DNA from: the human T2T-CHM13v2.0 reference genome, Homo sapiens
Strand: one strand, 5' to 3'
DNA: 64,000 bases
Assembly (NCBI RefSeq): GCF_009914755.1
Contig: NC_060931.1
Positions 45,953 to 51,826 of this stretch are shown here, in pieces. The notes beneath the pieces were generated by a model, which was not told the origin of the DNA, made no database searches, and saw nothing but the letters and a program-made list of their open reading frames with translations. The first letter of the stretch is position 1. Each line of letters opens with the position of its first letter. Both the position numbers and the translations under genes were made by a program.

Positions 45953-46955
45953 TGTTACAGGACCCCAACACTTACCCAAAGGTAGCCTTTGGGAAGGGGG
46001 TTTCCACACTATAGTCCCTTCTGCGGTGAACAGAAAGATGTTACAGGACTCCAACACCTACTGGGGGTTTCCTCACTATAGTCCCTTCTGTGGTCACCAA
46101 AAAGATGTTACAGGAAAGGCATCCCCATCCAGACCCCAAGTGAGGGTTCTTGGATCTCAGGCAAGAAAGAATTCAGGATGAGCTTGTAGAGTAAAGTGAA
46201 AGCAAGTATATTAAGAAAGTAGAGAAGCCAGGAATGGTGGCTCACGTCTGTAATCCCAGCACCTTGGGAGGCTGAGGCGGGCAGATCACAAGGTCAGGAG
46301 ACTGAGACCATCTTGGCTAACACAGTGAAACCCCATCTCTGCTAAAAATACAAAAAATTAGCCGGGTGTGGTGGCATGTGCCTGTAGTTCCAGCTACTCC
46401 AGAGGCTGAGGCAGGAGAATCACTTGAACCCAGGAGGCAGAGGTTGCAGTGAGCCGAGATTGTGCCACTGCACTCCAGCCTGGGCAACAGAGCAAGACTT
46501 TGTCTCAAAAAAAAAGAAAGTAAAGAAATAAAAGAATGGCTACTCCATAGACAAAGCAGCCCCGAGAGCTGCTGGTTGCCCATTTTTATGGTTATTTCTT
46601 GATATGCTAAACAAAGAATGGATTACTCATACCTCCCCTTTTTAAGCCATATAAAGTAACTTCCTGATATTGCCATGGCATTTGTAAACTGTCACGGCAC
46701 TGGAGGGAGTGTAGCAGTGAGGACGACCAGAGGTCACTCTTGTCGCCATCTTGGTTTTCGTGGGTTTTGGCCAGCTTCTTTACTGCAACCTGTTTTATCA
46801 GCAAAGTCTTTATGACCGGTATCTTGTGCTGACCTTTTATCTCATTCTGTGACTTAGAATGCTTTAACAGTCTGGGAATGCAGTCCCATAGGTTTCAGCC
46901 TCATTTTACCCAGCTTCTATTCAAGATGGAGTTGCTCCAGTTCACATGCCTGACA
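45953..46955 (-). mobile_element. 3' LTR: MER41A-like core 46106-46955 plus 153-bp extension 45953-46105
   Basis: Preceded on the minus strand by the PPT aaaagggaggggggaaa; the extension repeats the att/PBS units seen at 51133-51283. Confidence 0.9.
46227..46513 (+). mobile_element. AluSc/Y-like in the 3' LTR
   Basis: TSD aagaaagtagagaa (46213-46226) / aagaaagtaaagaa (46514-46527). Confidence 0.95.
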
Positions 46956-48635
46956 TTTCCCCCCTCCCTTTTATAAGAGCACCCTTAGTCCTAAGGGTTG
47001 CTGAGGAATGAAGATCCACCTTCTGTAAGTTCTTCAGGCTGAACAGGGGTGACAATATTCCTGCCTAACTATTAGGGTCTCTTGTATTCTGGGTAGAGAG
47101 GAGCTCAGTCAGAAAGCATTGGTATATGGGCCATTCATAACTCCAAGTTCTGACAAAAGGTGATATCTGGAAGATTAATAAGTGTTCAGTTTAAGAAAAC
47201 ATTTAGTAAGCTTGTTCTGCATTTTTACATGCAACAGCAATATATTTCACAACAGTAAAGCAAAATAAGTAAAATTATTCCGAGTAAACTAAATTAGAGG
47301 GTTTTCCATGAACTGGGCAGCTGTTGGAACCAAGCTGATATGGAGTTGCTAGATGATTTCAGTACACACCCAGAATTAGAATATTGATTCAGATTTTTAC
47401 GATACCCATTCCTCTTGTTTCTTCTGAGCAGCAGTCAGAGATCACTGGTGGTTCACAGGGTTAGCCTAAATTATAGAAACAAACTTAAAAACAACTGATA
47501 AGACTAGAATCTAATAAGTGTACCATATTTCTTGAAACATAATATTTCTGTCTCTAGTTTCCCATTTTTATAAAAGACATATCATGGTAAGACTGATTTG
47601 CTTTATTATAGTTGGCCTGATTATTTGTATAAAGTACAGCAAGAGTAACTATTTTTCACATAAGCTCTTTTTAAATTGGCTTTGATGGGACTGTGTTCCA
47701 TAGAAGGAATCTTAGATAAGACTTGTTTTAAAGCTGAGCCCTGCCATGGCTTTGCACCCTCAAATACCTATGAGTTGAGTAAATTCCCTTCCTCTTGGGG
47801 TCCCAAGATAACTTGGTGCTTCTAGGCCTGTTAGAAAGTGACATTCTTTACTTACCACAGGTCTGAAACCTTATACAGGGACTGTTGCAGGCAAGGTGTG
47901 AGGCTTTTCCCTAAGGGGCTTTTATTGACTTTACAAGTCAAGTTTGATTCCTTAAAGGAAAGCACACCATTCCAGTCAAAGCCTTGGTAAAATAACCAAT
48001 TTCTCCAGTTGTGTTCTGTTGCAAAAGAAAACAGATTCTTATTGCATTTATGTAAATAACTTATTGTCATAAATTAAGAATACTCAGAAATAGTTTCCAA
48101 ATTCTGGAGAAATCAGGTAACCAGAAACAAATATGCTCCAAATTTTGTTCATAGGAATATACTTTACTCAATTGTTAAACACTGTAAATAGCTTAAAAGA
48201 AAAGTATTTCTTGACTCTGAAAAACAAAATGAAGGATCGGCAACATTTTAAGAAAAAAGTTAAAAAGATTACTTCAGTTTTTATTGGTTCAGTTAATTTA
48301 GTTAACTCCTGTTTTGCTTGATATTCATAAACATTTCAGCTCTCCATGAAAATCCTGAAAGTTTTTTTCCTCTATTCTAATGTCACAATCACCAAAGTTA
48401 TTAGAAACGTGCATTCAAGAGCACCTGTCAGAGTTCTATGGTTGATTATAAACCACCTTCTAAAGAAGATTAAAACAAGACAATTGTCTGCGGATGACAA
48501 AAAGTCCTAGGACAGCCACTATTTAAGCCACAATTGACTAGGAAATGTTGGTTACCTTTGTGTCACACAATGATTTTATTTAGCAATTGTAATTATTAAT
48601 AACCTACACTAAGCCATATTACAATTACAGGAGGG

Positions 48636-48916
48636 TTTTTTTTTTTTGAGATGGAGTCTCACTCTGTCGCCCAGGCTGGAGTGCAGTGGTGCAATCTCAG
48701 CTCACTGCAAGCTCCGTCTCCTGGGTTCACGCCACTCTCCTGCCTCAGCCTCCCGAGTAGCTGGGACTACAGGCACCCGCCACCACGCCCGGCTTATTTT
48801 TGTATTTTTAGTAGAGATGGGGTTTCACCATGGTCTCAATCTCCTGACCTCGTGATCCTCCTGCCTCAGCCTCCCAAAATGCTGGGATTACAGGCATGAG
48901 CCACCACACCCAGCCG
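48636..48916 (-). mobile_element. AluY-like in the provirus internal region
   Basis: ctgcaagctcc...ctgggttcacgcca diagnostic positions. Confidence 0.93.
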
Positions 48917-50127
48917 GGAGTTTTTAAAATAATTTTGGAACACATACCAATAGCATATTTATACAAATACAGCCCAAAGAAAGCCAAATGCTATTTTACA
49001 TTTGATAATGCTTTCTGTATGATTTTAATATACCAAGAAGCCCAATTTCACCTTTACATTAGTATACTATTAACGTTAAACTCAATTCTTAATAAAACCT
49101 TATAGCCGTATCTACCCAATTTTAATGTTTCACTATAAGGTAAGATTTTCATAAACCTTTTATAACCCTTTACAAATTTTTGTTAAAGAGCAGATTATAG
49201 GCAGGTTTTTTGCTCTTAAGAAAAACCTGTTGTGCTTTAATTCCAATGCTTGATTTACAGAAAAACTGTATAATACCCCTTTTACTTTAGCCAGTAAGTT
49301 TACACACAGAATTTCTTTTATAATTAATTTTTCATAAACATTTCACAACTTGCTTAAACCTTCAGCTTTATCTAACTTAAAACAATCCTTTAATCCTTTA
49401 ATCTGGGCAAGAAAAATACACATTCCCATGTGTTCTTATAATCTTTTACCAAAAACACATTCTACTTTCCTTACATGCCTTGCATGTAGAACTTTTTTTT
49501 AGTAGTCTAAGACACATGTTACTCTGTTAACTCTTAGTGACTTTTACTTTTGGTGAAAACCCTGGTTAGTAAGTGATTTTGATTATCTACTGGATGTGAA
49601 GGCTAGGACCCAGACAGAAATGTAGATAAGGTCTGACTCTTTCCAGCATTTAACTTCACGTGTCCTAGGACTTACTTAGAATCTAATGCTCCAAAATAAA
49701 CTGAACAATTTTTCAAAGTCAAAGAAGCAGATTATGACCATTAAGTATTTAACAAACTTAACATCTGACCTGCATAATTTAGACCAAATGTCTTTTTTAC
49801 CAATAATCTTTAAAACTATCTTTATTTCCCAAACATTACTAAAGTCACACGAACTAAAATGCATTACACTTTTTTACTTTTCTGACCAAATATTTAACTG
49901 AAGCTCTTATTTTTAAGCCAATCAGTTAAAGCTCTTTCATATACAGACATCACACGACACATATAAATAGACAGAAGAAGACAAAGAACTCATCTTCTAA
50001 GACAGGAATTGAATCCTGAACCCGGGCCACCGTTGTGATGGCAGAGACCAAGAGAAAGTACTGCCACATGCTTACAAGGTCAAGCTTCCAAGGACATGAC
50101 TGACCACAGGGAAACCTCATCCACTTT

Positions 50128-50162
50128 ACACACAAACACACACACACACACACACACACACA
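50128..50162. repeat. (CA)n microsatellite
   Basis: Seen directly. Confidence 0.95.
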
Positions 50163-51132
50163 GAGGCCAGAAGTCTGACTGGTAAGAAATTCTTACCCTC
50201 TTGCCAGCATGCCAGTCTTCTGGGTTCCCTTTCCCTGAGTGGCCCTAGTGATCCAGCTGGCTGCACCACAGCCCTGGGGGCCAAGATGCAACACAAAGGA
50301 CAAATTATCTCCTTCCATTCTGGCCAGAGTAAAATATATGTGACAAAATGTAGACATTAGCCACTCTGCTAGGCACCCAATATCAAACTGGCAAGCCTCA
50401 AACTTGCCCCCATCATCGTTAATCCAACTTCCAACCAGGAGTTTCAACATGTGGTCTCTGGGCAAGATGGTCACCCTGAGTAATAGAAAAGATAAGAAAT
50501 GGAAAGGAGAGAGAGAAAAGGATTGCCTGTGGCAGGGTGGGGAAGGCAAGCTGCTCAGGGAGGCCAGAGAAAGACGTGCCCATTGCAGCAACACTGAATC
50601 AAAAGTTCAAGTGGCCACTTGTTGGTCGCAAAGGAATCTGTTCCAGCAGTGCCATCAGCTCTCAAGTTTCCCCTTTTAGGGAGGAAAAATCTCCCCATGT
50701 TTCACGATCCTGTACATGCTTAACCTTGTCACCCACAGCCATCAGCAAAGAGTACAAAGCAGATTAATCCAAAGAATAGCAGTTAACATCCCATAGTGCC
50801 AAACCCATTCTTAGCCGAGAGGGACTTTACCAAGAGGGACTTTACTGAAAGGGGTCTCTAACTCCCTAAATCTTAGAAGGGACTCTAATTCTCCTAAGTC
50901 CGACCTTTAAACCAAGGTTGGTCAAGTGTCCTTGCCTTTTATTGAGAGGAGCCTTTAACCCTCTCTTAGAAGAGACTCTAACTCCCCTAAGTTGGGCCTC
51001 TAACCCAATCCCATTCTTTACCTGGGTACCCCGCAACTTACCCAAAGTCATCCAATCAGTGCTGCAGTCTGTTTCCTTTGGGTTGGGGTGGGGGTCTCCT
51101 AGGTGTTATCCCTTCAGGGTTTGTCAGAAAGA

Positions 51133-51826
51133 TATTACAAGACCACACCACTTACCCAGAGGTAGCCGTTGGGTTAGGGTTTCTGCACTATAGTCCCTTC
51201 TGTGGTCACCAGAAAGATGTTACAGGACCCCAACACTTACCAGGGGTTTCCTCACTACAGTCCCTCTGTGGTCGCCAGAAAGATGTTACCGGAAAGGGGT
51301 CCTGATCCAGACCCCACGTGAGGTCTCTTGGATCTCACTCAAGAAAGAATTCAGGGCAAGTCCATCGAGTAAAGGGAAAGCAAGTTTATTAGGAATAAAA
51401 GAATGGCTACTCCATAGACAGAGCACCCCCGAAGGCTGCTGGTTGCCCATTTTTATGGTTATTTCTTGATGATATGCTAAACAAGGGGTGGATTATTCAT
51501 GCCTTCTCTTTTTAGACCATATAGGGTAACTTCCTGACATTGCCATCGCATTTGTAAACTGTCATGGTGCTGGTAGACGTGTAGCAGTGAAGACAACCGA
51601 GGTCACTCTTGTCGTCATCTTGGTTTTGGTGGGTTTTGGCCGGCTTCTTGACTGCAATCTGTTTTATCAGCAAGGTCTTTATGACCTGTATCTTGTGCCG
51701 ACCTTTTATCTCATTCTGTGACTTAGAATGCCTTAAGAGTCTGGGAACACAGCCCAGAAGGCTTCAGCCTCATTTTACCCAGCTCCTATTCAAGACGGAG
51801 TTGCTCTGGTTCACACGTCTCTGACA
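51133..51826 (-). mobile_element. 5' LTR: MER41A-like core 51284-51826 plus 151-bp extension 51133-51283
   Basis: Minus strand tgtcagagacgtgtgaaccagagcaactcc...ccggtaaca, followed by tctttc-TGGCGACCAC PBS. Confidence 0.9.

What the first reader, a model, noticed from the sequence alone, without database searches (positions are those of the whole stretch)
45953..51826. MER41 provirus with LTRs extended by tandem att/PBS units, consistent with priming from a downstream PBS
Seen: the ATAG TSD (45949-45952, 51827-51830) lies 153 bp outside the normal MER41A LTR end (46106). On the minus strand the 5' LTR end (att1, 51284) is followed by tctttc+PBS1 (51260-51277), a second ...CCTGTAACA end (att2, 51218), tctttc+PBS2 (51193-51211), a third decayed end (att3, 51133) and tctttc+PBS3 (51108-51126). 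The 3' LTR copies att1-PBS1-att2-PBS2-att3 (46106, 46039, 45953) and stops at the TSD. Established: minus-strand strong-stop DNA copies everything upstream of the priming PBS into both LTRs; ERV9/LTR12 has comparable U5 repeats. Inference: this copy was primed at PBS3, so two PBS copies became part of the LTR, a ratchet by which duplicated att+PBS modules lengthen an LTR. Standard annotation would probably label 45953-46105 as a stray internal fragment.
Basis: partly seen in the sequence, partly recalled or inferred. Interest (0 to 1): 0.8.

Follow-up and report, generated by a model that had tools for sequence, protein, structure and literature searches.

The report
Provirus LTRs lengthened by primer-site repeats
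An ancient retrovirus relic in a human chr7 intron has both terminal repeats 153 bp longer than normal because copying of its RNA began at the third of three tandem tRNA primer sites, and the same process appears to explain known repeats in a related virus family.

Summary
On the minus strand the 5' LTR (51826-51284) is followed by two modules of 66 and 85 nt. Each module is a 6-nt spacer, a tRNA-Arg primer-binding-site (PBS) copy, a leader stub and a copy of the LTR end (..TGTAACA). A third PBS-like site then opens the leader.

The 3' LTR carries the same two modules in the same order. It stops at the third LTR-end copy, directly against the 4-bp target duplication. LTR core and extension are equally diverged (87.0% vs 86.1%).

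Other MER41 copies in this genome show the same rule:
- Module number at the 5' side is 0-3.
- 3' LTRs or solo LTRs end after +0, +20 nt, +1, +2 or +3 modules.
- The 3' count never exceeds the 5' count (8 of 8 proviruses).
- An exact 4-bp duplication sits at the predicted end in 6 of 10 extended LTRs, against 1 of 200 at shifted positions.

Extended ends are rare: 0 of 37 in an unbiased sample and 3 of 20 other proviral 3' LTRs.

New here: the U5 repeats of ERV9/LTR12-like copies also carry PBS copies, perfect or decayed, at unit junctions. That points to the same process. I rate this a new variant of a known kind, of moderate interest.

The parts
45949..45952 (.). Target-site duplication, copy next to the 3' LTR (ATAG on +, CTAT on -)
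   Evidence: 4/4 match with 51827-51830; TSD test
45953..46038 (-). 3' LTR extension, module 2 (86 nt): spacer, PBS2 copy, leader stub with GGTAAGT, terminal CCTGTAACA that forms the true LTR end
   Evidence: 83.5% identical to 51133-51217
46039..46105 (-). 3' LTR extension, module 1 (67 nt): spacer, PBS1 copy (TGGTGACCACAGAAGGGAC), short leader stub, CCTGTAACA
   Evidence: 89.4% identical to 51218-51283
46106..46955 (-). 3' LTR core (TGTCAGG...CCTGTAACA), interrupted by an Alu
46227..46513 (+). Alu inserted in the 3' LTR, flanked by a 14-bp duplication (46213-46226 and 46514-46527, 13 of 14 identical)
   Evidence: absent from the 5' LTR
46956..46972 (-). Polypurine tract (AAAAGGGAGGGGGGAAA) directly upstream of the 3' LTR
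   Evidence: read on the sequence
46973..51107 (-). Internal region, about 4.1 kb including two masked repeat insertions. None of the seven minus-strand open frames of 60 aa or more in the region gave a Pfam match
   Evidence: 7 of the 7 minus-strand frames searched, 0 families at E<=0.01
51108..51132 (-). Spacer TCTTTC plus PBS3-like site (TGACAAACCCTGAAGGGAT) at the start of the leader; the inferred priming site of this copy
   Evidence: not detected as PBS-like at <=3 edits
51133..51217 (-). 5' side module 2 (85 nt) with PBS2 51211-51193 and decayed end ..TTGTAATA
51218..51283 (-). 5' side module 1 (66 nt) with PBS1 51277-51260 and end CCTGTAACA
   Evidence: 1 substitution from the tRNA-Arg complement, CpG decay allowed
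51284..51826 (-). 5' LTR core (543 nt); AATAAA at 51390-51385, so the modules lie downstream of the poly(A) signal, on the U5 side
51827..51830 (.). Target-site duplication, copy next to the 5' LTR

Best explanation
This is a MER41-type class I provirus. Its genomic RNA carried, after U5, three tandem copies of a module: a 6-nt spacer, a tRNA-Arg PBS, a leader stub with a splice-donor-like GGTAAGT, and a copy of the last ~9 nt of U5.

In the reverse-transcription event that made this copy, minus-strand synthesis started at the third PBS-like site. Strong-stop DNA therefore copied U5 plus PBS1, module 1, PBS2 and module 2. This whole stretch became 'U5' of both LTRs.

Integrase then used the CA of the third LTR-end copy, so the 4-bp target duplication abuts it.

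Shown: the anatomy, the equal age of core and extension, the tRNA match, and the recurrence elsewhere with TSDs.

Inferred:
- that a tRNA annealed at PBS3 was the primer;
- that the modules arose by a template switch from U5 back into the leader during minus-strand synthesis;
- that most family members primed at the first PBS.

Whether the choice of PBS was facultative in this copy's own lineage, or already fixed, is open.
For: 1. Collinear extension in both LTRs, ending at an LTR-end copy and followed at once by the TSD.

2. LTR core is 87.0% identical between the two LTRs and the extension 86.1%. The extension is therefore as old as the LTR pair.

3. Four further proviruses have the same logic:
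- C5:158.17 Mb: 2 modules at the 5' side, 2 in the 3' LTR, TSD 4/4.
- C14:57.0 Mb: 1 and 1, TSD 3/4.
- C23:53.2 Mb and C4:143.0 Mb: a 20-nt mini-module in both LTRs, with a further full module only at the 5' side, TSD 4/4 each.

4. In 8 of 8 proviruses with both ends read, the 3' count never exceeds the 5' count. Two of them have 3 or 1 modules at the 5' side but none in the 3' LTR.

5. TSD test on 10 extended LTR ends: 6 exact and 2 with 3/4 at the predicted position, against 1 of 200 exact at offsets -8..+12. Binomial 7e-13.

6. The PBS copies match the 3' ends of human tRNA-Arg genes found in this genome.
- Indel-free 18-nt matches occur at 10 of 34 first-position sites and 1 of 33 downstream sites (Fisher p=0.006).
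- At three independent loci the first PBS matches a second tRNA-Arg type (L067) instead. That is the mark of a site actually used for priming.

7. Most LTR ends stop at the first LTR-end copy: 37 of 37 in the unbiased sample and 17 of 20 other proviral 3' LTRs. Downstream priming was therefore the exception, as expected for imperfect downstream PBS copies.
Against: - PBS3 of this copy is a poor tRNA match. It was not found at <=3 edits.
- In all three proviruses that must have primed at the leader PBS (window, C5:158.17, C14:57.0), that site still carries extra bases rather than a tRNA-perfect copy. After priming there, about half of proviruses should show a perfect copy. Three of three retaining the old form has a chance near 1/8.
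- Two of 10 extended ends show no convincing TSD: L014 0/4, L005 2/4.
- The three solo cases (L010, L018, L023) could also arise by deletion between short LTR-end copies.
- The 6-nt spacer between CA and TGG means six bases, not the usual two, would have to be trimmed at the U5 end.
- No empty site in another species could be examined.
- Tandem Repeats Finder did not call the array.
Confidence: 0.85

Rival explanations
1. Variant nested in the best explanation. In this copy's sub-lineage the two modules were already a constitutive part of U5, and PBS1 and PBS2 were dead relics. Every replication cycle then primed at PBS3, and nothing 'alternative' happened at this insertion.
For: The only other provirus with the same architecture and both ends read (66-nt module, then 85-nt module, C5:158.17 Mb) also has both modules in its 3' LTR. 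The two +20-nt proviruses look like a fixed lineage. ERV9-like LTRs show such fixation.
Against: PBS1 at the window's 5' side is within one substitution of the tRNA complement, and PBS1 of the C5 provirus matches a second tRNA-Arg type. Both suggest recent use. Other proviruses with 1 or 3 modules primed at the first PBS. The 3' LTRs of the other short-module copies (L006, L020, L007) were not read.
Confidence: 0.3
2. The extension was added after integration. Gene conversion or unequal exchange copied the 5' LTR plus leader start onto the 3' LTR end.
For: LTRs of one provirus are known substrates for ectopic exchange (established knowledge). No tool result favours it.
Against: There is no homology on the flank side to resolve such an event. 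The tract ends exactly at an LTR-end copy and preserves the TSD. The extension is as diverged as the LTR core. The same structure recurs at four other proviruses, three with exact TSDs and one with 3/4.
Confidence: 0.05
3. 45953-46105 is the stump of a second, tandem provirus or a stray internal fragment. The ATAG match is chance.
For: The 153 bp are identical in kind to the start of the internal region. A 4-bp match alone has a 1/256 chance.
Against: The stump would have to be cut at the exact base after the third LTR-end copy. The same cut recurs at nine other loci, six of the ten with exact TSDs. No leader sequence follows.
Confidence: 0.03

Closest known systems
Retroviral vectors built with two primer-binding sites (Voronin and Pathak, J Virol 2004, and an earlier Virology paper)
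   Same: Two PBS copies in one RNA can each start reverse transcription. A start at the downstream one places the upstream PBS inside the LTR. This rests on my recall of those papers.
   Different: Those are engineered vectors; here the arrangement is natural, has up to four sites, and is about 40 million years old. I saw only the title in two reference lists. The paper itself is not held.
ERV9 / LTR12 U5 'B element' tandem repeats
   Same: Per the 2025 J Virol review, U5 length varies through a variable number of tandem units (passages read).

In three ERV9-like 5' LTR loci examined (L120, L122, L125) and one further LTR end (L126), each U5 unit ends in an LTR-end-like GGACACA. A T-rich spacer and a PBS copy follow, decayed in L120 and L122 and perfect in L125 and L126.

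Length classes differing by one unit: 22 hits end at the first LTR-end copy and 10 at the second.
   Different: - Units are 103-133 nt in the loci I read, the review says 72 bp, and MER41 modules are 66/85 nt.
- In ERV9 the units sit inside ordinary LTRs, whereas 37 of 37 sampled MER41 LTR ends lack them.
- The spacer is 3 nt, not 6.
- L120 is called ERV9 from its 41-nt U3 repeats (12.2 copies) matching the review. L122, L125 and L126 are called ERV9 by likeness to L120. No annotation was available.
Canonical MER41 LTR and solo LTR
   Same: Same LTR core, TG..CA ends and 4-bp TSD. The family is simian-wide according to Frith 2025 (passages read).
   Different: The canonical LTR ends at the first LTR-end copy. 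This copy ends two modules later.
HERV-W-like U5/PBS junction (loci L119, L121, L123, L124; family name recalled, not tested)
   Same: Same U5 end motif (..GGTAACA) and the same tRNA-Arg PBS.
   Different: 2-nt spacer, a single PBS, and no modules in the four loci read.

Membership tests
LTR provirus (class I endogenous retrovirus) | Two direct LTRs with TG...CA ends | tested here: met
   87.0% identical over 538 nt; TGTCAG...TGTAACA
LTR provirus (class I endogenous retrovirus) | 4-bp target-site duplication | tested here: met
   CTAT on both sides, at the extended end
LTR provirus (class I endogenous retrovirus) | PBS complementary to the 3' end of a host tRNA, just after the 5' LTR | tested here: met
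   PBS1 is 1 substitution from the complement of tRNA-Arg (L068 type), CpG decay allowed
LTR provirus (class I endogenous retrovirus) | Polypurine tract before the 3' LTR | tested here: met
   AAAAGGGAGGGGGGAAA at 46972-46956
LTR provirus (class I endogenous retrovirus) | gag, pol, env coding remnants | tested here: not met
   0 Pfam families at E<=0.01 in the 7 minus-strand open frames of 60 aa or more. No stop-read-through six-frame search was made, so short remnants may exist
   No repeat library on hand. The LTR end has 3466 first-look candidates in this genome, with the best 39 at 87-90% identity, as expected for a large family
Provirus made by priming at a downstream PBS | Two or more PBS copies after the 5' LTR, each preceded by a copy of the LTR end | tested here: met
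Provirus made by priming at a downstream PBS | 3' LTR contains the upstream PBS copies, in the same order | tested here: met
Provirus made by priming at a downstream PBS | TSD directly after the last LTR-end copy of the extended LTR | tested here: met
   window 4/4; 6 of 10 extended ends exact
Provirus made by priming at a downstream PBS | The site after the extended 5' LTR is a usable PBS | tested here: inconclusive
   PBS3 is decayed here (no match at <=3 edits). The same site in other copies carries 1-2 extra bases relative to the tRNA complement
ERV9/LTR12 U5 B-element repeats | Tandem units in U5 whose number varies between copies | tested here: met
   MER41 extended ends with +1, +2, +3 modules
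ERV9/LTR12 U5 B-element repeats | Units are part of ordinary LTRs of the family; 72-bp unit | tested here: not met
   37 of 37 sampled MER41 LTR ends lack modules; units are 66/85 nt

The most novel reading that the evidence does not exclude
Capture of PBS modules may be a general way for U5 to grow in the ERV9/MER41 clade. The proposed steps:
1. A template switch duplicates 'LTR end + PBS + leader stub'.
2. Occasional priming at the downstream copy moves the upstream PBS into both LTRs.
3. Once the upstream copies decay, the longer U5 is fixed.

On this reading the well-known LTR12 U5 'B' repeats are fossil PBS modules, and MER41 shows the process caught midway.

A bolder add-on, with no evidence here: spare PBS copies were favoured because they blunt host factors that target the PBS.
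Probability: 0.45. Interest if true: 0.7.

Novelty: new variant of a known kind. Interest (0 to 1): 0.6.

Why it matters
- It gives natural, multi-locus evidence that a retrovirus can start reverse transcription at alternative tandem PBS copies. As far as I recall, this was previously shown only with engineered two-PBS vectors.
- It explains a class of odd annotations: an LTR followed by a short 'internal' fragment before the TSD.
- It offers a concrete origin for U5 tandem repeats in LTR12 elements, which are widely studied as human promoters and enhancers.
- It gives a simple sequence rule for telling which PBS made a given provirus: compare module counts at the 5' side and in the 3' LTR.

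Tried and rejected
- **Tandem Repeats Finder** found no array at the modules.
The paired 5'/3' table therefore rests on 8 proviruses.
- **5' junction fetches:** of 12 targeted fetches, 8 missed the junction and 1 (L110) caught only the start of an LTR.
- **ERV9-like provirus L125:** its 3' LTR could not be read, so the two-perfect-PBS copy has no 3' count. L126 has no TSD check.
- **Pfam** on the seven minus-strand internal frames gave nothing.
- **Literature:** searches for tandem or duplicated PBS in MER41 or ERVs found no paper describing this (passages of PMC4724089). The ERV9 papers of the 1990s and Dfam/Repbase notes are outside the library, so prior description cannot be excluded. Supplements were not opened.
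- **Rejected readings:** a tandem-provirus stump, post-integration conversion and a chance TSD (see rivals).
- **Solo-LTR caveat:** deletion between the short LTR-end copies could explain solo cases. It was kept as a caveat for the three solo LTRs only.
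Full report
**What is in the window**

The element lies on the minus strand.
- The 5' LTR runs 51826->51284, from TGTCAG to CCGGTAACA.
- Two modules follow it. Module 1 is 51283->51218 (66 nt) and module 2 is 51217->51133 (85 nt).
- Each module starts with the spacer TCTTTC and a PBS copy. 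It continues with a leader stub holding a splice-donor-like GGTAAGT. It ends in a copy of the last ~9 nt of the LTR (CCTGTAACA; decayed to TTGTAATA in module 2).
- At 51132 the true leader starts with the same spacer and a third, decayed PBS-like site.
- The 3' LTR runs 46955->46106 and is preceded by a polypurine tract. An Alu interrupts it at 46227-46513, flanked by a 14-bp duplication.
- The same two modules, in the same order (67 and 86 nt), follow the 3' LTR.
- The second module ends in CCTGTAACA at 45953, and CTAT follows at once. CTAT also precedes the 5' LTR.

The repeat finder links the pieces. Tandem Repeats Finder did not call the array.

**Age of the extension**

A global alignment of the two ends with the Alu removed gives these identities:
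- LTR core: 87.0% over 538 aligned nt.
- Extension: 86.1% over 151 aligned nt.

The extension is therefore as old as the LTR pair. It shows no sign of a later transfer.

**The PBS copies are real tRNA-Arg sites**

A pattern search of this genome found five tRNA-Arg genes, which ARAGORN confirmed. They have two kinds of 3' end.
- PBS1 at the window's 5' side is one substitution away from the complement of the first kind, allowing CpG decay.
- Across 67 PBS-like sites in MER41 copies, indel-free 18-nt matches occur at 10 of 34 sites in first position and 1 of 33 downstream. Downstream sites otherwise carry one or two extra bases (Fisher p=0.006).
- At three independent loci (L007, L008/L009, L117) the first PBS matches the second tRNA-Arg kind instead. 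L007 and L009 do not share flanks.
- Part of a provirus's PBS is copied from the primer tRNA itself. This is established retrovirology. Such a swap therefore marks a site that was really used.

**The family picture: three samples of this genome**

*Sample 1 was biased towards modules* (40 of 1758 candidates scored, 30 loci, 28 of them not the window).
- 12 have a 5' LTR plus one module plus leader.
- 9 have two modules.
- 1 has three modules.
- 6 are LTR ends extended by modules and then followed by unrelated DNA: L018 and L023 (+1); L008, L010 and L014 (+2); L005 (+3).

*Sample 2 took 3' LTRs through the internal/LTR junction* (30 loci including the window).
- 9 ends were unreadable.
- 17 stop at the first LTR-end copy.
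- 2 carry a 20-nt mini-module (L043, L059).
- 1 carries one module (L050).
- 1 is the window itself.

*Sample 3 was unbiased, using the LTR end alone as query* (39 non-self hits; ends read, plus L012).
- 37 stop at the first LTR-end copy. Two of these are copies of one duplicated segment.
- 2 are 5' LTRs with two modules and leader.
- None is extended.

Extended LTRs are therefore real but rare.

**Paired ends**

I could read both ends of eight proviruses.

| Provirus | Modules at 5' side | Modules in 3' LTR |
|---|---|---|
| Window | 2 | 2 |
| C5:158.17 Mb | 2 | 2 |
| C14:57.0 Mb | 1 | 1 |
| C23:53.2 Mb | mini + 1 | mini |
| C4:143.0 Mb | mini + 1 | mini |
| C3:55.0 Mb | 0 | 0 |
| C11:126.88 Mb | 3 | 0 |
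| C2:48.06 Mb | 1 | 0 |

- The 3' count never exceeds the 5' count.
- Priming is seen at the first site, at a middle site and at the last site.
- Of twelve fetches aimed at 5' junctions, eight missed and one (L110) caught only the start of an LTR.

**TSD test**

I tested the ten extended LTR ends.
- The 4 bases before the LTR start equal the 4 bases after the predicted end in 6 of 10.
- Two more match 3 of 4.
- L014 (0/4) and L005 (2/4) fail.
- At offsets -8 to +12, excluding 0, only 1 of 200 comparisons is exact.
- The binomial probability for 6 or more of 10 at 1/256 is 7e-13.

**Mechanism**

In the standard scheme of reverse transcription, everything between R and the PBS that holds the primer is copied into both LTRs.
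- A 3' LTR containing PBS1, module 1, PBS2 and module 2 therefore requires a primer placed downstream of module 2. That means at PBS3.
- Because each module ends in a copy of the LTR end, integrase finds a CA there, and the TSD follows it.
- The 6-nt spacer means six bases, not two, had to be trimmed.

This much follows from the anatomy plus established knowledge.

Three further points are inference:
1. Module origin. The module content (PBS, about 60-80 nt of leader, then 9 nt of U5 end) is what a single template switch would produce. The switch would occur after minus-strand synthesis had run through the PBS into U5 and jumped back into the leader.
2. No ratchet from one event. One downstream priming event does not by itself lengthen later generations, because the next RNA again carries all PBS copies. 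The longer U5 is fixed only when upstream copies decay.
3. Weak points. PBS3 is decayed here. In all three leader-primed proviruses the leader site is not tRNA-perfect. No empty site could be checked.

**ERV9/LTR12 comparison**

Vargiu et al. 2016 place MER41 next to HERV9 (passages). A 2025 review states that LTR12 U5 varies by the number of 72-bp B elements. The word PBS does not occur in that text.

A search for the perfect tRNA-Arg PBS gave 28 hits against 0 in the control.
- **HERV-W-like loci.** Four of the six loci read have an ..GGTAACA end, a 2-nt spacer and a single PBS. The HERV-W name is recalled, not tested.
- **L120 and L122.** These two have U5 tandem units of 103-133 nt next to the PBS. 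L120 also has 12.2 copies of a 41-nt U3 repeat, as the review describes for LTR12. Each inner unit ends in an LTR-end-like ..ACACA, followed by a short T-rich spacer and a decayed PBS copy.
- **L125 (C23:116.659 Mb).** It has two perfect PBS copies 124 nt apart. Each comes after ..ACA TTT. The first is followed by the same sequence that follows the decayed copies elsewhere.
- **L126 (C7:158.06 Mb).** It holds a perfect PBS inside U5, and the LTR-like sequence ends one unit later against unrelated DNA. No TSD check was possible.
- **Length classes.** With L125 as query, 22 hits end at the first LTR-end copy, 10 at the second, 6 run through one PBS into a different leader, and 1 is full length.

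I read this as the same process at a later stage. It is a new link as far as my searches show, but old ERV9 papers and Dfam notes were not searchable.

**Verdict**

- It is a new natural variant of a known kind of event, of moderate interest (0.6). It would rise to about 0.7 if the LTR12 link holds genome-wide.

Noticed in passing
window 46227-46513; L014, L043, L053 (also perhaps L036, L048): An insertion of about 300 bp interrupts the LTR at the same position (LTR query 432-436) in several independent copies. In the window it is an Alu with a 14-bp duplication in an A-rich stretch. The others were not inspected.
   Followed up: partly
window 51278-51283, 51212-51217, 51127-51132; all MER41 loci: The spacer between the terminal CA and the TGG of the PBS is 6 nt (TCTTTC or TATTTC) in MER41. 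It is 2 nt in the HERV-W-like loci and 3 nt in the ERV9-like loci. This implies unusually long trimming at the U5 end.
   Followed up: no
L007, L008/L009 (C5:158.17-158.21 Mb), L117 (C11:126.88 Mb): The first PBS matches a different tRNA-Arg gene type (L067, C17:68.9 Mb) than the other copies. The rest of the module is unchanged, so this is a primer swap confined to the first site.
   Followed up: partly
L125 (C23:116659158-116659299) and L126 (C7:158060611-158060870): An ERV9-like 5' LTR region has two perfect tRNA-Arg PBS copies 124 nt apart. An ERV9-like LTR end has a perfect PBS one unit inside U5.
   Followed up: partly
L043, L059, L062, L063: A 20-nt mini-module (spacer plus LTR-end copy, no PBS) lengthens both LTRs of two proviruses with exact TSDs. 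It may define an LTR sub-lineage.
   Followed up: partly
L025 (C3:199.10 Mb), locus positions 583-1014: The BLAST rows show 11 tandem copies, about 36 nt apart, of a 34-nt piece of the LTR (query 178-211) inside one MER41 LTR.
   Followed up: no
L048, L054, L112: In these 5' LTRs the leader follows directly with no module. L048 and L054 belong to heavily deleted proviruses of roughly 1.5 kb.
   Followed up: no
window 50845-51008: Short direct repeats occur inside the leader: a 45-nt pair 93 nt apart and a related 22-nt family (D11, D12). They are also seen as self-hits in other copies.
   Followed up: no
window 45336-45574 and 25030-88509: The provirus lies antisense in an intron of LINC02577. 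An alternative exon ends 379 bp from the extended LTR end.
   Followed up: no
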